Positions 9,205-53,791 of a stretch of 64,000 nucleotides of DNA are shown piece after piece (within the stretch, counting starts at the first letter, position 1; each line of letters begins with the position of its first letter). Both the position numbers and the translations under genes were made by a program. Source of the stretch: an uncultured Chloroflexia bacterium (GTDB taxonomy: Bacteria; Chloroflexota; Anaerolineae; JAAYZQ01); assembly GCA_963700285.1 (NCBI GenBank), contig CAVOXA010000022.1:1-64000 (forward strand), given 5' to 3'. The notes beneath the pieces were generated by a model. That model was not told the origin of the DNA, did no database searches, and was given only the letters and a program-made list of their open reading frames with translations.

Positions 9205-11826
9205 ATGCTCATCCAGGCCCTAAAGGACCACTTCACGGGCTATTTTGCCCAGGCGGCAACCAAGGACACCGTTCTTTGGTTCGACCGGGAGAAAGAGTAC
9301 GCCGGATTGCTCGACTCGCTGGCAGGCCTGCCCCTGTGGCGCTTCGAGGGCAGCTTGCTCCAACTGCGCTACCGGCTGGTCCAGCGCGCTACCGGAGAGC
9401 GGGCTGTCGTCTACCTGCCGATGACAGAGGAAGAGGCGGACTTGCTCCGTCCCTTCTTTGCCACCAGCCTGTGCTTCAAGGACCGGCTCTACCGTTTCCT
9501 GCGCCACCAGGGGCTGGCCTTCCCCGATGATCCCAGGGCAGCCCACCTCATGCGAGAGTTGCTGCCTCAGTTGGCCATCCGGTCTGTCGGCAAAGGACGC
9601 CGGTTCTGGGAATACAACCTGGAGAATATCGAGCGGGCCATCAACACGCTCCTGGGCGAGTTTGACGGCACACTGCTGCGCTTCCTGGACCAGCCTGCCG
9701 ACGAGCTGGCGGATCTGCGCGCCCAGCAGTTCGATGGCCTCTTCTACGCCGAGCTGGCGGGCGCCTATGGCCTGGAAGCAACGCCGGATGATGATCCAGG
9801 GCAGGTTGCACGCGACCTTACCGCACAGCTCGTCCTGGCCCGGGCCTACACTCACGCTTCACTCAGTGCAGGCACTCACGCTTCACTCAGTGCAGGCACT
9901 CACGCTTCACTCAGTGCAGGCACTCACGCTTCACTCAGTGCAGGCACTCACGCTTCACTCAGTGCGGGCACTCACGCTTCACTCAGTGCAGGCACTTATA
10001 CCGCGGCCAGCGGGGGCGCAGAAACGGCGCAAGCAGAGGGTTTTCCCTATCCAGATCGCTTGCCCCAGCCCCATCAATTCGACCGCTGCCTGCGCTTCCT
10101 GGATCGCTGGCAGAACGACGCCCGCTATGCGGCCACCTTCGTCCGGCTGGCGACCGATGTAGGGCAGGCCTACAGCCTGGGCCCCTGGCTGGAAGCCTTG
10201 CCCATGGAGCAAGCGCTCAGCCTCGGTCCAACCCTGCCTGATGCCGAGACGGTACTCTGGGAGCGCGTACTGGCCACCTTGACCAAACGGGAGAGCGAGG
10301 CTGAATGGCGGGAGTGGCTCGCGGCGCAACGAACGGCCCTCCAGGAACGTGCGGAGGGGTTTTGGGTTCGCCAGGGCCGGGATCCCGGCTGGAACGTCCT
10401 CGTCCAGGCGGCCGCCCTGCTCACCCTGGCCCACGAGATGCGGGCCGAGCTGCCCAAGGTTGCTCAGCCCAGCGCCATGCTGCAGCGCTATGCCGGCCAA
10501 TGGTGGCGCATCGACGCCGCCTATCGCACCTTCCGCCAGGCCCTGGCGGACGCCCCGGGTGGGCTTGACCCCGTCCGGGACCGCTGCGCCCGGGCCTACG
10601 GTGAGGCCCTGCGGGCTATAAACGAACGCTTCAGTACCCTCCTTGATGCAGAGGGGCGCTGGCCTCCGGAGGGCGCACCGGCCGCTCAGGATCGTTTCTG
10701 GGCCGAGGAAGTGGCGGGCTTGAGCAAAGGTCAGAGGCAGGCTGTCCTCTTTGTCGATGCCATGCGCTACGAATTGGCGCAGACCCTGCTGGCCCAATTG
10801 GAGGCCGATCGGGCGGGGGACAGCCGCACACTGAAGCCGAGGCTGGGCGTCCTCCCCACCGTCACGCAACTGGGCATGGCCGCCCTGCTGCCAGATGGGC
10901 ACCAGCGTCGGGTGACCCACGATGGCGAGTGGCATGTGCACATCCGCGACAGCGGGGATCTGGCCATCAAGGCCGCTCGCATCGAGTGGCTGGTCGCCTG
11001 CCTGCCTCAGTGCACGGTCGCGGCCTACAACCTGAACGATCTGCTCAGCACCCCCACCGACCGCATCGAACAAGCCGACTATACCTTTGTCTTTGATACC
11101 ACGCTGGATGCCGTGGGTGAGAACGCCAGCGAGCTGGCCTGGGACGCCTTCGAGCCGCTGGTTCGCTCGGTGAAGCAGGGTGTGCACAAGCTGCTGGAAT
11201 TGGGGATCGAGGTGATCCACATCGTGGCCGACCACGGCTTCTTGTTGTTGCACGAGGTGGCCGAGCACGACAAGGTGCCGGCGGGCAAGGCACCAGCGCT
11301 GGCGCGCAAGTCTCGCTACCTCGTAGGCAAGCACCTGGGCAGCACGGATCAGCTCGATTTTCCGCTGCCCTGCAGTGAGGATCTTGAGATCTGGTTTCCA
11401 TGCGGCATCGGTTGCTTCCGCACCCCAGGGCGCTACAATTATGTGCATGGCGGCCTGTCCCTCCAGGAGGTGGTCGTGCCCCAGTTGACGGTCCGGCAGC
11501 AGCGGTTGGGCCGGCCGGTGGGCGTGCGCGTCGAACTGCCAGCCGCGATCCGCCAGGGGCAGATACGGCTCACCCTGGAACCCGTGGTCGAGAGCGTCGT
11601 CGACCAGCCGCGACGCGTCAGCCTGGCGCTGGAGAAGGGTGGACAGCCGGTCGTGCCACCCTCTGAAGCGACGGTGCTGCCCAGCGGGCCGGCCACCGTG
11701 AATGTGTGGTTGCCCCAGGGCTGCGGCCTGGAGATCGGTGACCGGGTTGAGTGGGTGCTGCGCGACCTGCTCACCGGCGAGGTGCTGGAACGCCAGGAGA
11801 CGCTCAGCCAGGTAGACCTTTGGTGA
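9205..11826 (+). CDS. pglZ: BREX PglZ alkaline-phosphatase-fold protein
   Basis: GAGGAG RBS; VLWFDREKEY N-terminus; FVDAMRYELA, LPTVTQLGMAALLP, IVADHGF, YVHGGLSLQEVVVP. Confidence 0.92.
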   Translation: MLIQALKDHFTGYFAQAATKDTVLWFDREKEYAGLLDSLAGLPLWRFEGSLLQLRYRLVQRATGERAVVYLPMTEEEADLLRPFFATSLCFKDRLYRFLRHQGLAFPDDPRAAHLMRELLPQLAIRSVGKGRRFWEYNLENIERAINTLLGEFDGTLLRFLDQPADELADLRAQQFDGLFYAELAGAYGLEATPDDDPGQVARDLTAQLVLARAYTHASLSAGTHASLSAGTHASLSAGTHASLSAGTHASLSAGTHASLSAGTYTAASGGAETAQAEGFPYPDRLPQPHQFDRCLRFLDRWQNDARYAATFVRLATDVGQAYSLGPWLEALPMEQALSLGPTLPDAETVLWERVLATLTKRESEAEWREWLAAQRTALQERAEGFWVRQGRDPGWNVLVQAAALLTLAHEMRAELPKVAQPSAMLQRYAGQWWRIDAAYRTFRQALADAPGGLDPVRDRCARAYGEALRAINERFSTLLDAEGRWPPEGAPAAQDRFWAEEVAGLSKGQRQAVLFVDAMRYELAQTLLAQLEADRAGDSRTLKPRLGVLPTVTQLGMAALLPDGHQRRVTHDGEWHVHIRDSGDLAIKAARIEWLVACLPQCTVAAYNLNDLLSTPTDRIEQADYTFVFDTTLDAVGENASELAWDAFEPLVRSVKQGVHKLLELGIEVIHIVADHGFLLLHEVAEHDKVPAGKAPALARKSRYLVGKHLGSTDQLDFPLPCSEDLEIWFPCGIGCFRTPGRYNYVHGGLSLQEVVVPQLTVRQQRLGRPVGVRVELPAAIRQGQIRLTLEPVVESVVDQPRRVSLALEKGGQPVVPPSEATVLPSGPATVNVWLPQGCGLEIGDRVEWVLRDLLTGEVLERQETLSQVDLW
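9849..9996 (+). repeat. In-frame 24-bp tandem repeat x6 (CACTCACGCTTCACTCAGTGCAGG; THASLSAG) inside pglZ
   Basis: Six near-identical copies (one A>G) plus a 4-nt partial copy. Confidence 0.95.
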
Positions 11827-39183: not shown

Positions 39184-40074
39184 TCAGGGTCTGCCCTTCC
39201 GCATCTGCCGTTTGGACGCCTGCAATACGTTGCTCATGAGCATCACGTTGGTCATCGACCCTGTGCCCCCTGGTACAGGCGTGATCATGCCGGCGACCTC
39301 TTTTGCCTCTTCAAAATCCACATCGCCCACCCACTGGTCTCCCAGGCGATTGAAGCCAAAATCAATGATGACGGCGCCCGGCTTGACCATGTCGCCCTTG
39401 ATCAGGTGGGGGATGCCCACGGCGGTGCAGAGGATGTCGGCTTCCTGGGTGATGGGCGCCAGGGGCCGGGTGCGGGAGTGGCACATGCTCACGGTGGCAT
39501 TGTGCTGCATGAGCAGGAAGGACATGGGCCGCCCGACAATGTTGGAGCGGCCGACGACGACGGCACGCCTGCCCTCCATCTCTACGCCGGCCCTCTTTAG
39601 CATCTCTAGTCCACCCAGCGGTGTGGCGGGTACCAGGTAATCGGGGACCGCATCGGGGTCGCGTACCGGGCCGGCCTGGGCCAGCCGTCCGGCGTTGATG
39701 GGGTTGACGCCATCGGCGTCCTTGATGGCCCGTATGGTGGCCTTGATCTCATCCTCGTCCAGGCCCCTGGGCAGCGGCTCCTGGAGCATGATGCCGTTGG
39801 TCCTCCCGTCGGCGTTGAGGGTGGCGATGAGGTCGATCACTTCATCCTGGCTGGCCGAGTCGGGCAGGGTGTGAATGGCAAAGCCCATGCCTGCGCTTTC
39901 AAAAGATCGCTTGATCATTGTGCCATAGCTGACCGACGCTGGATCGCTGCCCACCCGGACCACGGCGATGGCTGGTGCAAAGCCGTATGCCTCCTGGAAG
40001 ACGGCTACTTCGGCCATGATCTCTTTTCGCACCTCTTTGGCCATCTCGCGCCCGTCGAGAATTTGTGCTGTCAT
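39184..40074 (-). CDS. folD: Methylene-THF dehydrogenase FolD, paralog 1
   Basis: GAAAGGAG RBS; ILDGR, KDADG, VGRSNIVGRP, CHSRT, GDVDF, TPVPGGTG. Confidence 0.92.
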   Translation of the reverse strand: MTAQILDGREMAKEVRKEIMAEVAVFQEAYGFAPAIAVVRVGSDPASVSYGTMIKRSFESAGMGFAIHTLPDSASQDEVIDLIATLNADGRTNGIMLQEPLPRGLDEDEIKATIRAIKDADGVNPINAGRLAQAGPVRDPDAVPDYLVPATPLGGLEMLKRAGVEMEGRRAVVVGRSNIVGRPMSFLLMQHNATVSMCHSRTRPLAPITQEADILCTAVGIPHLIKGDMVKPGAVIIDFGFNRLGDQWVGDVDFEEAKEVAGMITPVPGGTGSMTNVMLMSNVLQASKRQMRKGRP

Positions 40075-40353
40075 GCTCTCTCCTTTCATTCCAGATTGCG
40101 CCAGGATCGCGTCCTGCAGGTCCAGGTTCCAATCTTCGATCCGCTCGCACGCGCCAGTCTCGCCCCATACGGCGATGACGCGGGGATCGGAACAGATGGA
40201 TTGGACAAAAGCCTCAAACTTGGTCTGTTCCGGTCCGTCGGTACTGACATAGACCAGTGTCGCCTGCGTGACCAAGGCGTTTGCAGTTTGGCGACCCAAT
40301 GCTTCTACAAGTTCGGGTCCAATGGTTGCATTGATGATGTCTTCGACGTCCAT
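40075..40353 (-). CDS. Hypothetical ~93-aa segment in frame with folD1
   Basis: Own RBS (GAGGGAG) and ATG; protein-like composition; no stop before the folD ATG. Confidence 0.45.
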
Positions 40354-40383
40354 TCACTCTCCCTCAACCCTGGTCTCGTACGT

Positions 40384-41991
40384 TCAGACGGGTACATCTA
40401 CGACGATGCGGGTTCCCTGGCCGGGCGCCGAATCGACCACCAGGTTGCCGCTCAACAGGCGTGCGCGCTCGTGCATGCCGATGAGGCCCAGGCCGCTGGC
40501 GTTTGCCGGATGGTCGGTCAGTGTGGGGGGCTTGAAGCCCCGGCCGTCATCTTGCACGGTCAACTTGATGGAGCTATCGCTCATTTCCACCAGGGTGATC
40601 ACGTGCATAGCTCGTGCATGCTTTCTCACGTTGTTCAGCGCTTCCTGCGCAATGCGGAACAGGGTCAGCTCTACTTCCGAGGAGAGGCGCCGGCGCTCAC
40701 CTTTGAGTTGGAACTCGGCGCAAAGCCCGTCTTCGCGGTTCAGATCGGTGGTTAGCTCCTCGAGGGTAGGCAAGAGCCCCAGATCATCCAGGATGGAGGG
40801 GCGCAGATCCTGGCTAAAGCGCCGCACGCGGCGGATCATATCGCCCGTCTCTAGCTGGAGCACCCGGATCCGGGCCGCGGCGGCCTCGGGCAGCGTTTCA
40901 TCGGAGGTGGTCAGGGCCTCCATGTGGCGGGTCAGGGCGATGAGGGACTGGATGGTGTCATCGTGCAGCTCGCGGGCGATGCGCTTGCGCTCGTTCTCCT
41001 GGGCCTGGGTGATCCTGCGCGCGTAGAAGCGCATGTTCTCGTACAGGTAGGCGTTTTCGATGGCGATCCCGGCCTGTCGCCCGATGGCCGTCAGGATGGC
41101 GACGTCGCGTTCTGAAAAGCCCTTGGGCCTCTCGATGGTCAGGACACTGAGGGCGCCAAAGACCCTGTCGCCGCTCACGATGGGCACTGTGGCGATGCTG
41201 GTCAGACCCGCCTGCAGGAAGGCGTCCACCGCCCGGGGGTAGGTCTTGTAGTCGTCGATGATGGTGGGCTGGCCGGTACTCATTACCTGGGCAGAGACAC
41301 CCTCGCTCCTGGTCACGGTTACACTGGCCAGTTCTGCGGGCAGACGGTGGAGATAGGGGTAGGTGACCATGTTCCGTGCTTCGTCCAGGAGGGCGATGAT
41401 CCCGCCATCCGTGCCCACGATATCCACGGCAATCTCCATGACCTTGGGCAGCACGCGGTCCAGCTCGAGTTCGGAGGTGACTTCTTCGGCGACCTGGCCC
41501 AGGGAACGCTCGATCTGGAGGTCGCGCAGGCGTTCCTGGTAGAGCCGCACGTTCTCGACAAAGGTGCCGATGATGTTGCAGATGGTATTGAGCAGCTCGA
41601 CTTCTTGGCGGAGGAGGGGGCAGGCGGTCCGGGCGCCGACAAAGAGCAATCCGTTGACCTCGCCCTTGGCCTTGAGCGGCCCGGCCAGCTTGCAATGGAG
41701 GTCCTCGTGGCGGGCGAGCATGCGCGATGACTTTGATCCGTCAGGGCAAGCAACCACCTCGGGTGGCAGGTCCCTGTGGGCGACCAGTGTCAGCCCCTGC
41801 TCCTCTTTGGACAGAAGATAAACCGCGCCCAGCTCCATACCCAGCACCTGGATGACGGTGTCCAAGATATCGTTGAGCGTTTTGTCAACGTCGAAAGACT
41901 GGGTCAGCGCCGTGGTGACATTGTTGATCATATTCAGGCGCGAGAGGACTCGTTCGTACGATTCCCGGCCTTGCATGATATGGCTCTCCAT
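40384..41991 (-). CDS. GAF-GAF HisKA_3 sensor histidine kinase (NarX/ComP type), cytoplasmic
   Basis: QENERKRIARELHDDTIQ, LRPSILDDLGL, FRIAQEALNNVRKHA, DDGRGF, GLGLIGMHER. Confidence 0.92.
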   Translation of the reverse strand: MESHIMQGRESYERVLSRLNMINNVTTALTQSFDVDKTLNDILDTVIQVLGMELGAVYLLSKEEQGLTLVAHRDLPPEVVACPDGSKSSRMLARHEDLHCKLAGPLKAKGEVNGLLFVGARTACPLLRQEVELLNTICNIIGTFVENVRLYQERLRDLQIERSLGQVAEEVTSELELDRVLPKVMEIAVDIVGTDGGIIALLDEARNMVTYPYLHRLPAELASVTVTRSEGVSAQVMSTGQPTIIDDYKTYPRAVDAFLQAGLTSIATVPIVSGDRVFGALSVLTIERPKGFSERDVAILTAIGRQAGIAIENAYLYENMRFYARRITQAQENERKRIARELHDDTIQSLIALTRHMEALTTSDETLPEAAAARIRVLQLETGDMIRRVRRFSQDLRPSILDDLGLLPTLEELTTDLNREDGLCAEFQLKGERRRLSSEVELTLFRIAQEALNNVRKHARAMHVITLVEMSDSSIKLTVQDDGRGFKPPTLTDHPANASGLGLIGMHERARLLSGNLVVDSAPGQGTRIVVDVPV

Positions 41992-42100
41992 TAGCCTGCT
42001 CCTCTGGTTTGGCTTTGTGGACTGCCAGTAGTACTGGTACTTTAGGTCCAGCAGGCCTGCCGCCGGTAGCTTGCCGTTGGGGTGGGCCTGCCAGCGTTCT

Positions 42101-42766
42101 CTAGAAGGTATCCTCCAACGTGATGAGACCTTTTCGAAGCCCGACCATGACGGCTTCGGTCCGTGAACCTACGCCCATCTTGTTAAAGACGTTGCTGAGG
42201 TGCGTTTGGACGGTACGCACGCTGATGGACAGTTCCCGGGCAATGACCCGGTTCGACATCCCCCTGGCGGCCAGGCCCAGGACCTCCAGCTCTCTTTCGG
42301 TGATCTGCTCCAGCCCGTTCTTGGCGCCGGATCCGGGGTCGCTGGATGCGAAACGATTGATGACCTTGCGGGTGATGGCCGGATGCAGTACCGATTCACC
42401 GGCGTGTACGGCCCGGATGGCCTCGACGAGCTTGTCCACGCTGATGTCCTTTAGGAGATAGCCGGCGGCGCCGGCCTCGAGGAAGGCAAAGATGTATTGC
42501 TCGCTGTCATGGGCGGTGAGTACCAGGATGGCGATGCCGGGGGCGACGGCCTTGATGTGCCGGGTGGCCTCGATGCCGTTCAGCTTGGGCATCGCAAAGT
42601 CCATGATGACCACGTCGGGACGCTCTTTGAGGGCCAGTTGGACGGCTTCCTGGCCATCGCTGGCTTCCGCCACGACCTCCAGATCCTCCTGCTGATCCAG
42701 CAGTTCCCGCGTGCCTTGGCGCACGACGGCATGGTCTTCAGCCAGCAGGATTCGAATCGTCTGCAC
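42101..42766 (-). CDS. NarL/LuxR family response regulator
   Basis: EDHAVVRQG, MDFAMP, GYLLK, ITERELEVL...SVRTVQTHLSNVFNKMGV. Confidence 0.95.
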   Translation of the reverse strand: MQTIRILLAEDHAVVRQGTRELLDQQEDLEVVAEASDGQEAVQLALKERPDVVIMDFAMPKLNGIEATRHIKAVAPGIAILVLTAHDSEQYIFAFLEAGAAGYLLKDISVDKLVEAIRAVHAGESVLHPAITRKVINRFASSDPGSGAKNGLEQITERELEVLGLAARGMSNRVIARELSISVRTVQTHLSNVFNKMGVGSRTEAVMVGLRKGLITLEDTF

Positions 42767-42862
42767 AGTGATCTCCTCAGGACGCTATTATATCACCGGC
42801 CTGTTGTATGCACAAACCGGGGACGCGAACCGCACCTTGTGTGCTGGCACGCCTACGCCAAA

Positions 42863-42884
42863 ACACGTAGAGGACTCTACGTGT
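42863..42884. promoter_or_regulatory. Perfect 10-bp inverted repeat in the divergent RR/folD2 intergenic region
   Basis: ACACGTAGAG-GA-CTCTACGTGT. Confidence 0.55.
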
Positions 42885-43061
42885 CTTGGGAAGTCCAGGT
42901 GCCGCAGAACACGCAGATGCAGGGTAGGCATCCACGCCCTTTTTCGTAGGGATAAGTTCCAAGGACGAAATGGTTGCTTTAGCCGATGACAGCGCAGCGA
43001 CCCTGTGGTAAGATGTGGACAGTTGAGAAGAAAACGAACTCATGCACAAGGAGCATATGAA

Positions 43062-44033
43062 ATGACAGCAAAGATTCTGGATGGCAGCGCGGTATCGAAG
43101 CAGATTTTGGCAGAGATCAAGGATCAAACCTCCGTTTTTCAAGCGGAATGGAAAGCGGCCCCGACCCTGGCCCTGATGCGTGTAGGCGATGACCCGGCTT
43201 CGGTGAGCTATGCCGGTATGATCGAGCGCACCTGCAATCAGGTCGGCATGGTCTTCCAAAGCCATACCCTGCCCTCGGACGCTACCGAGGACGAGGCGGT
43301 ACGGCTGATGCGCAAGCTGAACGACGACGAAAACGTGCACGGCATCATCCTGCAGCAGCCGTTGCCCGAAAGCATACACGCCGAGGCCGTCGTTGAGGCC
43401 ATGGACCCGGCCAAGGACGTGGACGGCGCTCACCCGCTGAACGCCGGCCGGCTGGCCCGCGCAGCCTTTGTCGACAGCCCGCAGAACGTCGGCCCCTACT
43501 TTGTCCCGGCCACGCCATTGGGCGGCCTGGAACTGCTGAAGCGCTACGCCATCCCGGTCGATGGCCAGCGAGCCGTGATCGTCGGCGCCAGCAACCTGAT
43601 CGGCAAGCCGATGTCGCTTCTGCTGACCCGCCACTGGGCGACGGTGACGGTCTGCGACCTGCACACCAAGCCCCTGGCCGAGATCACCCGGCAGGCCGAC
43701 ATCCTGGTGAGCGTCACCGGAGTGGCCCACCTGATCACGGCTGACATGATCAAGCCCGGCGCGACGGTGCTGGACTTTGGCTTCGCTCGCCTGGAAGGCA
43801 AGTGGGTTGGCGACGTGGACGCGGAATCCGCCAAGGAGATCGCCGGGGGCATCAGCCCTGTGCCAGGCGGCACCGGCCCCATGACCAACGCCATGCTCAT
43901 GCGCAACACGCTGACAGCAGCGGAGCGCCAGGTACGCCTGGGTGTCAAGGTCGCGAGCCGTGTCTCTGCGGCGAGCCTGACCCCGGTGGGAATGGGTGAC
44001 AGGCAGCGGCCCGCCGACAGCATCATGCAGTAA
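43062..44033 (+). CDS. folD: Methylene-THF dehydrogenase FolD, paralog 2
   Basis: AAGGAG RBS; ILDGS, KDVDG, VGASNLIGKP, CDLHT, GDVD, SPVPGGTGPMT. Confidence 0.92.
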   Translation: MTAKILDGSAVSKQILAEIKDQTSVFQAEWKAAPTLALMRVGDDPASVSYAGMIERTCNQVGMVFQSHTLPSDATEDEAVRLMRKLNDDENVHGIILQQPLPESIHAEAVVEAMDPAKDVDGAHPLNAGRLARAAFVDSPQNVGPYFVPATPLGGLELLKRYAIPVDGQRAVIVGASNLIGKPMSLLLTRHWATVTVCDLHTKPLAEITRQADILVSVTGVAHLITADMIKPGATVLDFGFARLEGKWVGDVDAESAKEIAGGISPVPGGTGPMTNAMLMRNTLTAAERQVRLGVKVASRVSAASLTPVGMGDRQRPADSIMQ

Positions 44034-44231: not shown

Positions 44232-44858
44232 CTAGAGTCTGCTCACGACATCGTCATAGATGTCGTCGCGCATGACGCCTCTGCCCTCGAGCAGGGCGTT
44301 CAGTTTGGCCCGGCGGTCGGCGACAAAGTCCTGGTCTTTGAGTGTGCCCAGGTTGATGAGCACGTTGAGGGCCGCGCTGCGCAGCGCGGCTTCGGCCATC
44401 AGAACGGCCACGCCCGCGTCGCTGACGGCCCACTTGTTCCCCATGTCGGCGGCGGGCTGGCAGAGGTCCATCACCTCGGCCGCCGCTGCGGCGATGCTGA
44501 GGGGCACGTCGGTGGCGACCCGGAGCGCGGCCTGCATTGCCACTGCGCGCTCGGCCTTTTCGGCGTCGGTATCCCGCGGCATCTTGGCGGCCTGCGAGTA
44601 GCCGGTGTAGGCTTGTACGTCCGCTTCCAACAGGCCGGTCAGTTTGGCGCGCAGGGCCTCGGACTGGGCGAGCAGGTCGCCAATCTCATCCTGGACGCCG
44701 GCGTAGGCTTGCTTGCCCAAGGTCAGGTTGCAGACCATGCTGACCAGCGCCGCTCCCAGGGCGCCGCTGATGGCCGCAACGCTGCCCCCTCCCGGGGCTG
44801 GGGCGCTGCTTGCCAGTTCGTCGAGAAAGTTGGCCACCGGTTTGTCTGTGAGTTTCAT
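44232..44858 (-). CDS. fchA: Methenyl-THF cyclohydrolase (FTCD_C / FchA family)
   Basis: FLDELASSAPAPGGGSVAA, SMVCNLT, GNKWAVSDAGVA, NVLINL. Confidence 0.88.
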   Translation of the reverse strand: MKLTDKPVANFLDELASSAPAPGGGSVAAISGALGAALVSMVCNLTLGKQAYAGVQDEIGDLLAQSEALRAKLTGLLEADVQAYTGYSQAAKMPRDTDAEKAERAVAMQAALRVATDVPLSIAAAAAEVMDLCQPAADMGNKWAVSDAGVAVLMAEAALRSAALNVLINLGTLKDQDFVADRRAKLNALLEGRGVMRDDIYDDVVSRL

Positions 44859-44884
44859 GTTGTGTAGCATCCTCCTTGAAAGGT

Positions 44885-45963
44885 TTGAGGCGGACTCCAG
44901 TCCGCCGGTTTCTGTGCGCCAGAGTGCTGGACTGTGGTCCAGCACGAGCAACCACCTATCCTCTGCTCGGCGTGGACCACAGTCCACGCCCAGTCGCCAG
45001 GGTGCTGGACTGTGGTCCAGCACAAGCAACTACCTATCCTCTGCTCGGCGTGGACCACAGTCCACGCCCAGTCGTCAGGGTGCTGGACTGTGGTCCAGCA
45101 CGAGCAACTACATCCAGTCGCGACACAGTGGAGCACATCCTCTGCTCGGCGTGGACCACAGTCCAGCACCAGCAACTACCTATCCTCTGCTCGGCGTGGA
45201 CCACAGTCCACGCCCAGTCGCCAGGGTGCTGGACTGTGGTCCAGCACGAGCAACTACCTATCCTGCTCGGCGTGGACCACAGTCCAGCACAAGCAACTAC
45301 CTATCCTCTGCTCGGCGTGGACCACAGTCCACGCCCAGTCGTCAGGGTGCTGGACTGTGGTCCAGCACGAGCAACTACCTATCCTCTGCTCGGCGTGGAC
45401 CACAGTCCACGCCCAGTCGCTCGGCGTGGACCACGGTCCAGCACAAGCAACTACCTATCCTCTGCTCGGCGTGGACCACAGTCCACGCCCAGTCGCCAGG
45501 GTGCTGGACTGTGGTCCAGCACGAGCAACTACCTATCCTCTGCTCGGCGTGGACCACAGTCCAGCACCAGACTACCATCGGTCGGCTGGACTATAGTCCA
45601 GCACGAGCAACTACCTATCCTCTGCTCGGCGTGGACCACAGTCCACGCCCAGTCGCCAGGGTGCTGGACTGTGGTCCAGCACAAGCAACTACCTATCCTC
45701 TGCTCGGCGTGGACCACAGTCCAGCACAAGCACTACCTATCTCTGCTCGGCGTGGAACGTCCACGCCCAGTCTCGTCTGGACGTCCAGCACAAGCGACTA
45801 CCTTTCTGCCGGCGTGACCGTAGCACAAGCAACTACCTATCCTCTGCTCGGCGTGGACCACAGTCCACGCCCAGTCGCCAGGGTGCTGGACTGTGGTCCA
45901 GCACGAGCAATTTGCATGAATACTGCTTGACAATCCCTGCTTGAGGCGGACCACCGTCCGCCG
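44885..45963. repeat. Left REP/BIME-like tandem array (about 14 units of 78 or 45 bp)
   Basis: Unit GTGCTGGAC-TGTG-GTCCAGCAC / GAGCAACTACCTATCCTCTGCTC / GGCGTGGAC-CACA-GTCCACGCC / CAGTCGCCAGG; bounded by TTGAGGCGGAC-N4-GTCCGCCG at about 44885 and 45941. Confidence 0.95.
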
Positions 45964-46524
45964 CTAACCCATCAATGCGCGAGCGTCCTGGATGGGAATG
46001 ATACACTGCCCATCTCCCAAGTAGAAGCGAGCAGACGACCAGGCATACTCCTCAGGCGCGTCAACCAAGTGCCACGCAGGCTGCAGCGGATTGTTGTGAA
46101 TGTACGTCAGTTTTTGGCTGAGGAACCCGGCTGTCGCAACACTCTTGGGCAAGTAGCCATCCTCCCATACCTTGTGCATCTGCTTGTCCGGACGAGTGAC
46201 CAATGAGGTCAGAATACTGAGTGCTTTGTGGTTGTTCTCAACCTGATAGTAGCGGACAATCAGTTGGGCAGAACTGGTCTTGAAAGCTCGGGCCCAATCT
46301 GCAGGTGGACAGTCGGGTGGGCAGCGAATGATGGCGTGTACGTGATTGGGCATTACAACAAACGCATACAGGTCGACGTGGTTCATCAGACTGACAAAGT
46401 ACAGAGCATCGACGAGCTGGCGCTTGACGATGTCGCGGTGGAAGATTTGTGTACGGTCAGCAGCAGTCGTCGTGACAAAGTACAGATGGTCGGGATCAAA
46501 GTCTGGGCGCCATCGTGTTGTCAC
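45964..46524 (-). mobile_element. REP-associated tyrosine (Y1 HUH) transposase, RAYT/TnpA-REP
   Basis: LYFVTT, AFVVMPNHVH (HUH), VWEDGY, KLTYIHNNP (catalytic Tyr), EEYAWSSARFY; flanked by REP arrays. Confidence 0.92.
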
Positions 46525-46599
46525 GTTTACCCCACCCGGAAGTCTTCTGACCAGTATCCTGCCAGAGTCAGATAACGGTTCGTCGCTTGTATGCCCTAT

Positions 46600-47580
46600 G
46601 TGCTGGACTGTGGTCCAGCACGAGCAACTACCTATCCTCTGCTCGGCGTGGACCACAGTCCAGCGCCCAGTCGTCAGGGTGCTGGACTGTGGTCCAGCAC
46701 GAGCAACTACCTATCCTCTGCTCGGCGTGGACCACAGTCCACGCCCAGTCGCCAGGGTGCTGGACTGTGGTCCAGCACGAGCAACTACCTATCCTCTGCT
46801 CGGCGTGGACCACAGTCGACGCCCAGTTGCCAGGGTGCTGGACTGTGGTCCAGCACGAGCAACTACCTATCCTCTGCTCGGCGTGGACCACAGTCCACGC
46901 CCAGTCGCCAGGGTGCTGGACTGTGGTCCAGCACGAGCAACTACCTATCCTCTGCTCGGCGTGGACCACAGTCCACGCCCAGTCGCCAGGGTGCTGGACT
47001 GTGGTCCAGCACGAGCAACTACCTATCCTCTGCTCGGCGTGGACCACAGTCCAGCCAGTCACCACGGGTGCTGGACTGTGGTCCAGCACGAGCAACTACC
47101 TATCCTCTGCTCGGCGTGGACCACAGTCCAGCACGAGCAACTACCTATCCTCTGCTCGGCGTGGACCACAGTCCAGCACAAGCAACTACCTATCCTCTGC
47201 TCGGCGTGGACCACAGTCCACGCCCAGTCGCCAGGGTGCTGGACTGTGGTCCAGCACGAGCAACTACCTATCCTCTGCTCGGCGTGGACCACAGTCCACG
47301 CCCAGTCGCCAGGGTGCTGGACTGTGGTCCAGCACGAGCAACTACCTATCCTCTGCTCGGCGTGGACCACAGTCCACGCCCAGTCGCCAGGGTGCTGGAC
47401 TGTGGTCCAGCACGAGCAAGAACTATCCTCTGCTCGGCGTGGACCACAGTCCAGCACAAGCAACTACCTATCCTCGCCGTGTGGGCGCCGGTTTGTGCGT
47501 GTCAGGGTGCTGGACTGTGGTCCAGCACGAGCAACTACGTATCCTCTGCTCGGCGTGGACCACAGTCCAGTACGAGCAGT
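46600..47580. repeat. Right REP/BIME-like tandem array (about 14 units), same orientation as the left array
   Basis: Unit starts at 46679, 46757, 46835, 46913 and 46991 (78-bp period); 45-bp hybrid units around 47100-47190. Confidence 0.95.
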
Positions 47581-47593
47581 TGTTGGAATCCTG

Positions 47594-49081
47594 TCACGCT
47601 GGAAGCAGTCCTTTGCTCTGCAGCAGCCCGATGGCATCGGTGGAGTGCTTGTCCATACCCAGGGTCTTGGCATCAATGCCATAGGCGACGCCCATCAGTT
47701 GGGTAAAGTAGGTGATGGGAATGTCAAACTGGCCGCCAAACTGCTCGTTGATCTGCTTTTGGCGTAGGTCCAGGTTGGCGTGGCACAGGGGACAGGCCGT
47801 GGTGATAAGGTCCGCCCCTTCGTCGATGGCGTTCTTTAGGATCTTTTGGCTCAGGTCCAGGGCAATCTCCAGGGTGCTGAGCGACAGCGATCCACCACAG
47901 CAGTCGGTCTTGTAGGACCAATCCACCACCTCGGCGCCCATGGCCTCCATCAGGTGGTCCATGTTCATGGGATACTCGGGGTTGTCGGCGCCGGTTACGG
48001 CGGGCGGCCGGGTGAGCAGGCAGCCATAGTAGCTGGCCACCTTGAGGCCCTGCAGGGGTTTGACCACCGGCTCCGCGGCCGCTTTGATGCCGACGCGGTC
48101 GGTGACGGTCGTCAGCAGGCTGTCCACCTTGATGCCGCCTGTATAGTCAAAGCCGATATCGTCCGCCAGTTTCTGCCGAAGCGCGGGGTCGTTTTCGACC
48201 TCGTGCATGGCCACACGGAACCGGGAAAAGCAGGCGGCGCAAGGCATGGTCATATAGTCGTGGCCCAGGTCCTCGGCGATGGCCAGGGTCTGCATGGGCA
48301 GTTTGATGGCCCGGTAGTGGTTGGTGTTGTGGGCCGGCGAGGTACCGCAACAAACCCAGCCCTCGGGCTCGACCAGGTTCAGACCCAGTCGTTTGGTCAC
48401 GGCCATGGTGGACATGTGGAACTCGATGCCGGTGGCATGCAGGCTGCAGCCGGGATAGTAGGACACGACCTTGTCCTTGATCTCTCCGGTTCCTGCTTCC
48501 GTGCCGACGGGTGCCGTATGCGCGCCCGCCGGGTCCTTGGCCGATCGCCCGTTGCGCGATCGCCGGGCGATGCTGGGCAGGATCTTGAGCTTGCCCGCAC
48601 GGAGCATCCTGACGGCCAGCGGGATGTCGTACTTGAAGAGCTGGCCGAAATCCAGCTCACCGGCAAAGAACTCGCGGGCGTAAAGCTCGGCCATCAGACC
48701 CAGCTCCCACATGCGGCCGAACCAGTCGATGCCCCGGTTGGCCGATTTGTAGAACATGGGCACGGTAGGCGCCTTGGCCTTGATGCCCTGCTCCTTGGCC
48801 ATGATCTCCAGCACGTCCATGATGCGGGCGATGTCAATGTCCTGCGGGCAGCGGGTAGAGCAGGTCTCGCAGGCGGCGCAGAGAGAAATGGTCCGCGAAT
48901 TGAGCACCAGGTCGGTCTGCCCGAACTGGGCGGCTCGCAGAACCTGGTGGGGTGTCAGGTCAAAGAAGGCCGCCACCGGGCAGCCAGCAGTACACTTTTT
49001 GCATTGGTAGCACAAAAAGACATTCTCGCCGGAACGGTTGCGGATCTCGTGGGCGAGGTTTGTCTCGAGCGTAATTGTCAT
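47594..49081 (-). CDS. Fused HdrC-HdrB (heterodisulfide reductase-like FeS/CCG protein)
   Basis: CYQCKKCTAGCP, CAACETCSTRCP, YYPGCSL, WVCCG, YYGCLLTRP, CCGGS, ACPLC. Confidence 0.9.
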   Translation of the reverse strand: MTITLETNLAHEIRNRSGENVFLCYQCKKCTAGCPVAAFFDLTPHQVLRAAQFGQTDLVLNSRTISLCAACETCSTRCPQDIDIARIMDVLEIMAKEQGIKAKAPTVPMFYKSANRGIDWFGRMWELGLMAELYAREFFAGELDFGQLFKYDIPLAVRMLRAGKLKILPSIARRSRNGRSAKDPAGAHTAPVGTEAGTGEIKDKVVSYYPGCSLHATGIEFHMSTMAVTKRLGLNLVEPEGWVCCGTSPAHNTNHYRAIKLPMQTLAIAEDLGHDYMTMPCAACFSRFRVAMHEVENDPALRQKLADDIGFDYTGGIKVDSLLTTVTDRVGIKAAAEPVVKPLQGLKVASYYGCLLTRPPAVTGADNPEYPMNMDHLMEAMGAEVVDWSYKTDCCGGSLSLSTLEIALDLSQKILKNAIDEGADLITTACPLCHANLDLRQKQINEQFGGQFDIPITYFTQLMGVAYGIDAKTLGMDKHSTDAIGLLQSKGLLPA

Positions 49082-49177
49082 CAGCCAGCTCCTCAACAGA
49101 ATACAATCCGAAAAAGCTCTGCCCCCAAGACCCTGTTCACCGGGTACCGGGGGGCGCAAGCGACTCTTCGGACAGAC

Positions 49178-52328: not shown

Positions 52329-53791
52329 CTATTCCCCTATCCTGACATCGTCAAAGCGGCAGACGGGGACGCCGTGTCCGAGCTGCATGGCCTGGTTGGG
52401 CTGCCCTTTGCCGCAGTTTTCCACGTAGCTCAGGCGCCAGGTTGTCTCATCGCCAACGGCTGACAGCGAGTTCCAGAACTTGAGCGTATCGTCCTTGTAG
52501 GTGGCGTTTTTGACGACCTGGGTGATTTCTCCGTCCTCCACCAGCCAGCCGATCTCCCCTGCAAAATGGAACTGTTCGCGGTTGGGGCCGATGGACCAGC
52601 TCCGGTCCCCGTCGACGATGATGCCCTTTTCCGTGCTTCCGAACAATGTCCTCCAGCGAGCCGTCATCGCCGGGATCGATGTTGATGTTGGTCATTCTCT
52701 CAATGGGCACCCGGTAGAAGGAGGAGGCGCGGTTGCAGCCGCCGCTCCCGGCGAAAATCTCCTTGCCGGCCCTGGCGTTGGCTTCTTCCACCATCTGGCG
52801 GCCTGTAATGGCGCCGACCAGGATGCCCCTGTCGATGAGGACCGTGTCCTGGCAGGCGACGCCGTCGTCATCGTAGCCAAAGCTGCCGGGGCTGTTGGGT
52901 ACCGTGCCGTCGGCCCGGGCTGTCAGCTTTTCGGAACCGTAGCGCAGCGTGCCGAAATCGCCCAGGGTCACCAGTGAGCCGCCCGCGTAGGACAGTTCAT
53001 AGCCCAGGATGCGGTCCAGTTCCAGGGGGTGGCCAATGGTCTCGTGCGTCTGCAGCCACATGAGGGTGGGCAGCAGGATAACCGAACGGTTCTCTTTGGG
53101 GCACTGCTCGGCGACCAGCAACTGGTTCATTTCCCGGACAATCCTATCGGCGTTTTCCCCAAAGAGGTCTGCCGTCGATGGATTCCCAACCCCGGCTGCT
53201 GCTGTCCTCTCGGCCGAGCCTGAACTTGCGTTCGTGTGTGACGCCCTCTTTGTCTTTGCCCGAGACCTGGATCTGGGCAAAGACGTCGGTGATCTGCTTC
53301 TCAATCTCGCTGCCTTCCGAGTCCAGAAAGAGGATCTGCTTCCGGATGAAGAACAGGTCCCCGATGCGCTGGAGCACGCCGGGCTGATCGAGACGCTCGT
53401 CCATGTCCTTCAGGAAAGCAACCTTGTCGGCCAGCGGGACCTCAAAGGGGTCGATGGCGCAGGGGCTGGTGAATTCTGCCTGGAGCGCCTCCCTTTCAGC
53501 CAGCCGCACGGGAAAAGTCACCCGCCGCGCGGCGATCTGGGCGTTTCCGAGGGCGCGGTCAAAGACCGGCCCCAGATCACTCAGGTCAGACGTGGCCGAG
53601 AATCCCCAGGCACCCTCGTATAGAACACGAACTCCCATGCCGCTCTCGCGGGCAGAGGTCGTTCCTTTTCAGGTTGCCGTTCCACATCAACAGGTTGTTT
53701 CTTTTTTCAGAGGGAACCCAGCGTGCATCCACGTAGGTGGCGCCCGACTTTTGTTACTCGATCGATCTGTTCTTTGATCTGTTGTCAGCAT
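52329..53791 (-). CDS. tldD: TldD metalloprotease (frameshifted)
   Basis: GVRVLYEGAWGFSA, THETIGHPLELDR, GYDDDG, IERMTN, SWSIG, CGKGQP..LGHG. Confidence 0.88.

What the first reader, a model, noticed from the sequence alone, without database searches (positions are those of the whole stretch)
44885..47580. RAYT between two ~1-kb arrays of back-to-back double-hairpin repeats
Seen: about 14 units on each side, in the same orientation. Each 78-bp unit has a minus-strand GTAG-TTGCTC-GTGCTGGAC-CACA-GTCCAGCAC element joined back to back with a plus-strand TGCTC-GGCGTGGAC-CACA-GTCCACGCC element that lacks GTAG. The two share the loop and inner stem but have covarying outer stems. 45-bp units have chimeric hairpins (GGCGTGGAC..GTCCAGCAC), consistent with recombination at the shared core. 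A third variant (GGCGGAC-N4-GTCCGCC) brackets the left array. Known: RAYTs are flanked by REPs/BIMEs, characterised mainly in Proteobacteria. Inference: a recently active amplification system with an unusual REP architecture, inserted inside the C1 cluster between hdrCB and fchA.
Basis: partly seen in the sequence, partly recalled or inferred. Interest (0 to 1): 0.7.

Follow-up and report, generated by a model that had tools for sequence, protein, structure and literature searches.

The report
GCTC-tagged REP arrays flanking a RAYT
A hairpin-cutting transposase-like gene sits between two 1-kb tandem arrays of short DNA hairpins that carry a GCTC tag instead of the textbook GTAG; the enzyme likely built the arrays, which makes this a barely described variant of the known bacterial REP/RAYT repeat system.

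Summary
The arrays and the RAYT are real, but the proposed asymmetry is not. GTAG is incidental: the genome-wide REP family is GCTY tag + 9-bp stem + CACA loop (92 of 96 copies outside the locus carry GCTC/GCTT/GCTA; 1 of 96 has GTAG nearby), and both hairpins of the 78-bp unit carry GCTC. The unit is an ordinary inverted REP doublet (BIME/REPIN) in tandem; 45-bp units are 'double-foot' deletions. The RAYT fits subclass 2.6 (Quentin 2018), whose supplement lists a few GCTN-footed REPs; GCTN tags dominate 18 of 24 close relatives, GTRG none. The REPtron entered hdrCB-fchA in this genus (site empty in 16 of 17 relatives); the arrays grew from about 0.2 to 1.1 kb relative to a sister genome. Kilobase arrays also flank two other RAYTs in these genomes. 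Likely mechanism: RAYT cleavage and rejoining, predicted at G|A, plus slippage; untested. The scan has 392 RAYT/REP-array notes on other genomes, none found for this protein or tag. Verdict: new variant of a known kind, moderate interest.

The parts
45964..46524 (-). RAYT (TnpA-REP) gene, 186 aa, subclass-2.6 signature: NHVH (H61, H63), WE, YIHNNP (Y141), SS tail
   Evidence: NF047646 above cut-off; invariant columns in 114 homologues; dN/dS 0.15 against the sister genome; model pLDDT 94, highest query TM-score 0.66 to 4ER8
44924..45908 (.). Left (RAYT-downstream) array of 78-bp REP doublets and 45-bp double-foot units; expansion inside one ancestral REP
   Evidence: alignment to the single REP at this place in the sister genome
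46600..47577 (.). Right (RAYT-upstream) array, same unit and orientation, 24 REP elements
46835..46860 (-). Example REP subtype H1: GCTC tag (46857-46860) directly 5' of a 9-bp stem with CACA loop
46876..46901 (+). Example REP subtype H2: the same GCTC tag (46876-46879), 9-bp stem with a different outer half, CACA loop
46875..46939 (.). The unit re-phased as a tags-outside doublet that folds into one long REPIN-type hairpin; 13-nt spacer to the next
   Evidence: folding with DNA and RNA parameters on both strands
46863..46866 (-).
   Evidence: 1 of 96 family copies outside the locus has GTAG within 15 nt; absent before the hairpins of the sister REPtron
47109..47157 (.). Example 45-bp unit: chimeric hairpin with a tag on both sides (double-foot REP), a 33-bp deletion between the two REPs of a doublet
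   Evidence: same unit as a 75-nt unitig in run X4
44883..44908 (+). Third REP subtype H3 (7-bp stem), decayed tag GTTT; ancestral part of the REPtron
45939..45964 (+). Third REP subtype H3 with GCTT tag, abutting the RAYT stop codon; ancestral
45728..45830 (.). Degraded array stretch with small deletions (decay or assembly error)
44232..44858 (-). fchA-like gene (FTCD_C; NF045657 260.5 bits, below the 275 cut-off), downstream neighbour
47594..49123 (-). HdrC-HdrB-like fusion gene, upstream neighbour

Best explanation
This is a REPtron: an intact subclass-2.6-type RAYT gene between two tandem arrays of inverted REP doublets whose tag is GCTC, and the RAYT likely built the arrays by cutting and rejoining single-stranded DNA, predicted at G|A sites. 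Shown: the REP is GCTY + 9-bp stem (invariant GGAC-CACA-GTCC apex, freely covarying outer half); both hairpins of the 78-bp unit are such REPs; the cassette is absent from this site in other genera; each array replaced one to four REPs present in the sister genome. Inferred from E. coli and Marinomonas biochemistry: the enzyme binds the tagged strand exposed at forks or R-loops, the tag selects the cleavage dinucleotide by complementarity (GTAG gives C|T; GCTC would give G|A, found in the complement of the tag and in the stem), and strand transfer makes small circles or extra units. A new H1/H2 doublet that arose here was so multiplied and copied to both sides of the gene; host slippage and unequal exchange then likely changed copy number and produced the 45-bp deletion units.
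For: Tag: (48 matches in G001, reversed control 0). Clade-wide: 18 of 24 close loci majority GCTN, 0 GTRG; 15 of 21 and 0 in class genomes (two loci shared). Protein: E. coli Q95/E100/H101/R104 align to E121/P126/K127/A130; subclass 2.6 signature and GCTN-footed REPs in Quentin 2018 Table 1 and Table S1. Empty site. Growth: intergenic 1069 and 1105 nt against 224 and 147. Enzyme dependence: a different REP family has 137 copies and 1-kb arrays on both sides of its RAYT in G001 and 0 copies with an empty site in G000; the 78-bp linker occurs only at this locus yet on both sides of the gene; by element count the largest cluster of each of 6 REP families flanks its own RAYT. Published model and iREP cleavage.
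Against: No activity was tested. Every array junction I could map lies in a microhomology or a whole REP, which slippage explains equally, and GA lies inside the shared core, so it is no test of the predicted site. The sister genome has the same intact RAYT with short arrays. Kilobase REP arrays also lie away from their RAYT: 2485 bp on C7, longer than the 2304-bp RAYT-flanking array of that family, and 20 elements of the focal family on C5. The 6-of-6 result is biased because each pattern was taken from the RAYT's own flank, and three of the six top clusters hold only 3-4 elements. Dispersed focal clusters are not enriched near the RAYT (0 observed, 0.5 expected within 50 kb). The fourth tag base varies (C, T, A, G), which fits poorly with a strict guide role. 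The tree group joining this RAYT to Bacteroidota ones has 95/74 support, not starred, and W is followed by E, not the subclass-2.6 Q.
Confidence: 0.68

Rival explanations
1. Same GCTC-tagged REPtron, but the arrays grew by host replication slippage, unequal exchange and gene conversion among hairpin-rich repeats; the RAYT only seeded the REPs and its adjacency is historical.
For: Junctions lie in microhomologies or whole REPs. Orthologous REP sites far from any RAYT differ in copy number in both directions between G000 and G001. Kilobase arrays lie far from RAYTs. 5 of 9 chimeras share one tag variant, suggesting one deletion spread by duplication.
Against: One new unit stands on both sides of a 560-bp gene in the same orientation here and at a second REPtron, which needs a transfer step; a REP family and its arrays are present only in the genome with the cognate RAYT, 137 against 0.
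Confidence: 0.22
2. The arrays are kept by selection as an RNA element in the hdrCB-RAYT-fchA transcript (mRNA stability, pausing, damping of RAYT expression) or are processed into small RNAs.
For: All three genes are on one strand and the units fold stably as RNA; pieces of the RAYT gene and one array end occur in metatranscriptome libraries, which does not show transcription.
Against: 16 of 17 relatives have the operon with no repeats; the sister genome has only short flanks; no Rfam match near a gathering score; no terminator-like site on the coding strand.
Confidence: 0.05
3. One reading: a bipartite unit of one GTAG-tagged active REP and one untagged partner hairpin, a new architecture.
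For: GTAG precedes 22 H1 copies at a fixed 6-nt distance.
Against: Those 22 are copies of one amplified spacer; 1 of 96 family members elsewhere has GTAG nearby; absent in the sister REPtron; 0 of 24 close loci majority GTRG; GTAG-contact residues replaced.
Confidence: 0.02
4. The array length is an assembly artefact and the genome holds only a few units.
For: A degraded stretch at 45728-45830; no spanning read found; raw unitig depth only 1.5-4 times that of flanks.
Against: Both units exist in short-read unitigs of other studies; correcting for sparse single-copy cover gives 7-21 copies; units carry heterogeneous variants.
Confidence: 0.03

Closest known systems
TnpA-Y1 subclass 2.6 (Bertels group 5) REPtrons, Quentin et al. 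2018, PMC6006769
   Same: NH[LIV]H, YIH[QN]NP, SS tail, insertion before the W motif, length near 179; non-GTRG short hairpins; Table S1 has a Flavobacterium indicum REP with foot GCTC, 9-bp stem, 4-nt loop, and 7 of 26 listed genes have a REP starting GCTN (my count by eye).
   Different: Described as mostly Bacteroidetes with 'atypical' weak structures and no named tag; here a Chloroflexota clade with WE instead of WQ, a consistent GCTC tag, a genome-wide population (159 elements, 39 clusters) and kilobase arrays.
E. coli REPtron and BIME-2 (TnpA-REP/RayT; Ton-Hoang 2012 PMC3333891; Messing 2012 PMC3479197, PDB 4ER8)
   Same: Single HUH-Y1 gene bordered by variable numbers of tandem REP/iREP doublets of two subtypes with compensating stem changes; copy number varies by locus and strain; same fold.
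   Different: Tag GCTC not GTAG; perfect 9-bp stem without bulge; tag-contact residues replaced; the cassette has an empty site in relatives and no shared neighbours across 25 loci except the sister genome.
Pseudomonas REPINs and group 3 RAYTs (Bertels and Rainey 2011 PMC3116915; Corneloup 2021 PMC8266576)
   Same: Short perfect hairpins, tags-outside doublets folding as one long hairpin, tandem REPIN clusters, clusters beside RAYTs, deletion between the two REPs giving one long palindrome.
   Different: Largest SBW25 clusters hold 12 REPs; here 22 and 24. Different tag and RAYT group.
GTAG- and CGTC-tagged REP superfamilies (Di Nocera 2013, PMC3733652)
   Same: Tetranucleotide tag at one stem foot, HH/TT dimers, tandem clusters with flanking DNA; Chloroflexi GTAG families clustered in large blocks.
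   Different: GCTC does not occur in that main text; CGTC repeats lack a transposase, GCTC repeats have one.

Membership tests
RAYT / TnpA-REP | HUH motif and catalytic Tyr in Y---NP; family model | tested here: met
   NF047646 82.7 > 80 bits; H61, H63, Y141, N145, P146 invariant in 114 sequences
RAYT / TnpA-REP | Single copy, purifying selection, cognate hairpins on both flanks and dispersed in the genome | tested here: met
   1 match in G000; dN/dS 0.15; 159 elements in 39 clusters
RAYT / TnpA-REP | REP-dependent ssDNA cleavage and strand transfer | not testable with these tools
   needs purified protein
RAYT / TnpA-REP | Gene stays at one site (does not move as a unit) | tested here: inconclusive
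   Same site in the sister genome, but empty in 16 of 17 relatives and 1 of 300 locus pairs share neighbours; the published claim is at species level, these comparisons are across genera
Subclass 2.6 (group 5) | NH[LIV]H, YIH[QN]NP, SS tail, insertion between alphaC and beta4, length near 179 | tested here: met
   NHVH, YIHNNP, WSSA, about 25 extra residues against E. coli, 186 aa
Subclass 2.6 (group 5) | WQ motif | tested here: not met
   WE in this protein and nearly invariant in the clade; WE also occurs in Bacteroidota locus L021 whose REP matches a listed 2.6 entry, so filing is 'subclass-2.6-like branch'
Subclass 2.6 (group 5) | Groups with Bacteroidota 2.6 proteins in a tree | tested here: inconclusive
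   46-row group apart from E. coli RayT, support 95/74, no reference 2.6 protein from the paper in the tree
Subclass 2.6 (group 5) | Flanking hairpins without GT[AG]G | tested here: met
   Table S1 rows
GTAG-tagged REP | GT[AG]G 0-2 nt 5' of the stem | tested here: not met
   GTAG is 6 nt away here and in 1 of 96 copies elsewhere
BIME-2 / REPIN | Two inverted REPs with a short linker, folding as one hairpin, repeated in tandem with flank | tested here: met
BIME-2 / REPIN | Copy number varies between genomes at a locus | tested here: met
IS200/IS605 element | Y---Q motif, near-identical multiple copies, one hairpin per end | tested here: not met
   Y---NP; NF033573 38.7 < 55 bits; single copy
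CRISPR array | Unique spacers between direct repeats | tested here: not met
   spacers are identical copies

The most novel reading that the evidence does not exclude
A third REP superfamily, tagged GCTC and served by group-5/subclass-2.6 RAYTs across Chloroflexota and beyond, whose enzymes read a different tag and cut a different dinucleotide (G|A), travel between lineages as whole cassettes, and amplify REP doublets in cis into kilobase arrays in short bursts. Sister genomes with GCTC-, GGAG- and GTAG-tagged systems in different states would be a natural experiment on how REP populations are born.
Probability: 0.35. Interest if true: 0.62.

Novelty: new variant of a known kind. Interest (0 to 1): 0.42.

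Why it matters
How REPs multiply and whether their terminal tetranucleotide acts as a cleavage guide are open questions studied on three GTAG systems only (passages of PMC8266576). A natural GCTC system gives a clear prediction (G|A) and a test of the guide model without engineered mutations. It also counters the statement that only group 2 and 3 RAYTs are associated with REPs or REPINs (passage of bioRxiv 10.1101/2022.05.22.493013), and GTRG-based REP searches would miss the family. The architecture itself is known, so the gain is an extension, not a new kind of system.

Tried and rejected
GTAG as tag: rejected. Cleavage site from array junctions: all mappable junctions lie in microhomology or whole REPs, uninformative. 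Local-hopping gradient of dispersed copies around the RAYT: not found for the focal family. One search undercounted the focal arrays (16, 13) because my script merged back-to-back REPs; searches give 22 and 24. Tag-protein covariation (GCTC against GTTC or GCGC loci): no clear residue seen by eye in 19 aligned proteins. Rfam: 4 weak miRNA matches far below gathering scores. Promoter scan: 0 sites. PDB sequence search did not find 4ER8 with the single protein and only weakly with the profile (E 0.0098). Plasmids: 6 records at 26-31% identity, uninformative. Sequencing runs: no run holds half the stretch; all are contigs at low depth, none spans an array, and RNA-library pieces do not show transcription. 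Tree: 3 of the selected loci dropped because my motif extraction failed (L045, L113, L115); L003, L004, L006, L117 sit on a very long branch and were not checked as correct frames. Earlier scan notes gave no lead. Bertels, Gallie and Rainey 2017 (group numbering) was not read; the mapping 2.6 = group 5 comes from Quentin Table 1. bioRxiv supplements were not seen and could list non-GTAG REPs.

Full report
Observation. The window is contig C22 of a 7.05-Mb, 22-contig genome; record titles of the closest relatives say Chloroflexota, several Anaerolineae, so the host is likely of that group. A 186-aa gene at 45964-46524 (-) scores 82.7 bits against the 80-bit cut-off of the RAYT model NF047646 and below the IS200 cut-off. 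It lies between an hdrCB-like fusion and an fchA-like gene in a one-carbon cluster. Arrays of periods 78 and 45 lie on both sides in the same orientation: 14 and 13 central linkers, 22 and 24 REP elements (the left count includes one third-variant hairpin). Nine hairpins are chimeric, all of one polarity, none of the reverse types. Short-read unitigs of other samples contain the 78-bp unit (X2, X5) and the 45-bp unit (X4) with no differences. Their raw depth is only 1.5-4 times that of flanks, but only 7-17% of single-copy words are covered, and a rough Poisson correction gives 7-21 copies (3 of the 7 runs laid were used). No record spans an array.

What the REP is. The 12-nt apex GGAC-CACA-GTCC occurs exactly 139 times in the genome against 1.5 expected. 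Of the 96 copies outside the locus, the four bases at the foot of the 9-bp stem are GCTC in 76, GCTT in 14, GCTA in 2 and other in 4; GTAG lies within 15 nt upstream in 1 of 96. The outer five pairs vary freely and stay paired (16 different fully paired versions among 65 deduplicated copies, my count by eye; list). Both hairpins of the 78-bp unit carry GCTC at that place, as does the third variant (GCTT). The sister genome G001 has 48 matches to the tagged pattern and 0 to the reversed control. The 22 GTAG copies are one spacer amplified. Re-phased, the unit is a tags-outside doublet that folds into one long hairpin plus a 13-nt spacer, that is a REPIN or BIME.

The tag belongs to the protein clade. 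The protein has 214 relatives at E <= 0.001, most on short contigs. Of 147 related loci examined (two duplicates dropped), 29 are at 40% identity or more; 24 of these have at least two recurring hairpins, 18 of 24 have a majority with GCTN 13-14 nt before the loop and 0 of 24 a GTRG majority (86 of 126 hairpins GCTN; chance about 0.07 each by my arithmetic). Among distant loci the figures are 17 and 4 of 82. Exceptions seen by eye have GTTC (L008, L012) or a GCGC-like foot (L011); L130 has GCTC one base further off. In class-wide genomes 15 of 21 loci were majority GCTN and 0 GTRG (25 loci examined, 5 duplicates dropped, two repeat loci). Most close loci show two alternating REP subtypes sharing the apex, so the double-hairpin design is the norm. 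The E. coli residues Q95, E100, H101, R104 of the GTAG-binding region (Quentin 2018) align to E121, P126, K127, A130. The model (pLDDT 94) has its highest query TM-score, 0.66, with E. coli TnpA-REP 4ER8, ranked third by E-value behind ISDra2 chains.

History. G001 has the same RAYT (86% identity, dN/dS 0.15, dS 0.5) at the same site, with 224 and 147 nt of flank against 1069 and 1105 here. On the fchA side one REP between the two third-variant hairpins has become the whole left array. Of 17 family genomes of other genera with an fchA match, 16 have hdrCB 15-214 nt upstream and no RAYT; one shows no hdrCB in the DNA held. The clade is patchy (46 of 401 class genomes at E <= 1e-25) and only 1 of 300 locus pairs, G000 with G001, shares neighbours. 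So the cassette arrived in this genus and the arrays differ between the two species; growth here is more likely than loss there because the units are near-identical, but direction is inferred.

The layout is not unique. A GTAG-type RAYT on the same contig lies between 376-bp and 2.3-kb arrays, shorter in G001. In G001 another RAYT lies between about 1.2-kb and 0.9-kb arrays of a 103-104-bp GGAG-tagged doublet in one orientation; that family has 137 matches in G001 and 0 in G000, where the site is empty. Arrays of 800 bp or more were found in 5 of 168 RAYT loci, many on contigs too short to show them. By element count the largest cluster of each of 6 REP families in G000 flanks its RAYT, but the patterns came from those flanks, three top clusters are tiny, and by length a 2485-bp array on C7 exceeds the 2304-bp flanking array of its family. 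Orthologous REP sites far from RAYTs also differ in copy number both ways.

Mechanism. Shown for E. coli: cleavage of single-stranded DNA at C|T, including a site overlapping the complement of the tag, strand transfer, and a model of circle excision and local amplification (Ton-Hoang 2012, passages). Shown for a Marinomonas enzyme: changing the tag changes the cut site by complementarity (Corneloup 2021, section 21). By that rule GCTC would give G|A (or G|G); this is my inference. I think the RAYT multiplied a new doublet and moved it to both sides (0.68 for the whole account; identity as a GCTC REPtron about 0.9). The main rival is host slippage (0.22): all mappable junctions lie in microhomologies, 5 of 9 chimeras share one tag variant, and the sister RAYT is intact without long arrays.

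Comparison with the known. Signature motifs fit subclass 2.6 except WE for WQ; a tree of 57 rows puts it with Bacteroidota RAYTs apart from E. coli RayT at 95/74 support; locus L021 has a REP matching a listed 2.6 entry. Quentin Table S1 lists GCTC-, GCTA-, GCTG- and GTTC-footed hairpins for subclass 2.6, so such feet are in print as table rows, but GCTC does not occur in that main text or in Di Nocera 2013, and a search for GCTC with REP sequences and TnpA found 0 papers (other searches; open-licence literature only). Tandem doublets of two subtypes, clusters beside RAYTs and double-foot deletion products are described; the largest SBW25 clusters hold 12 REPs. One preprint states that only groups 2 and 3 are associated with REPs. 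What I saw: Quentin 2018, passages, text parts 4-5 of 10, Table S1 parts 1 and 6 of 7 and 30 searched rows; Corneloup 2021, part 1 of 7, passages, section 21; Di Nocera 2013, Messing 2012, Bertels and Rainey 2011, Ton-Hoang 2012 and two bioRxiv preprints, passages only.

Verdict. Real, correctly located, partly misread. It works like a REPtron with BIME-2-type amplification and is a subclass-2.6-like member with a GCTC tag. New variant of a known kind; interest 0.42.

Noticed in passing
L108:1598-4313 (G001:C4:763598-766313); empty site at G000 C22 about 74186-74258: A GGAG-tagged REPtron with 1-kb arrays on both sides, present in G001 (137 REP matches, many in arrays within about 85 kb of the gene) and absent with all its REPs from G000, where another palindrome pair occupies the site.
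   Followed up: partly
L107:1744-5057 (G000 C22:207743-211056): GTAG-type RAYT with HYH motif and proline-rich N-terminus (subclass-2.8-like) between 63-bp and 108-bp unit arrays; its family has 256 elements and further 1.6-2.5-kb arrays on C6, C7, C10. The G001 orthologue has shorter arrays and frameshifts (mutation or assembly error).
   Followed up: partly
G000 C7:152880-152930, C7:27513-28083, C4:97000-97040, C4:114020-114060, C10:871420, C10:1563150: A long form of the focal REP with an extra small hairpin inserted in the loop (10 copies, 9 near other family members); at one orthologous site G001 has the short form.
   Followed up: partly
G000, 24 of 32 matches lie near focal REPs (e.g. 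C7:27609, C4:96944, C14:379724, C9:11896): A recurring motif GACTGTGYGAAA beside the REPs, resembling the iREP arm and loop; serves as crossover point for some arrays and may be the end of another element.
   Followed up: no
L003, L004, L005, L006 (G000 C10:223232, 1334096, 1428142, 1496833): Four more RAYT-like genes, each with its own palindrome family, some copies apparently inside the gene; one has an 83-bp array of 5 units.
   Followed up: partly
G000 C22:117334-119156: An IS200-like Y1 gene (Y---Q with H tail) next to a 1.3-kb array of a 185-bp unit.
   Followed up: no
window 39184-44033: Two divergent-strand folD paralogues around a GAF histidine kinase and response regulator; the minus-strand ORF has about 93 extra N-terminal residues (start not checked).
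   Followed up: no
window 52329-53638: An apparently TldD-like gene in three overlapping frames upstream of a PmbA/TldD-family gene, probably frameshifted in the assembly; not scanned against families.
   Followed up: no
L012:2655-3919: A 1.27-kb array of a 164-bp GTTC-tagged doublet directly upstream of a related RAYT (46% identity) in another Chloroflexota genome.
   Followed up: partly
window 9849-9996: A 24-bp tandem repeat, 6.2 copies at 98% identity.
   Followed up: no
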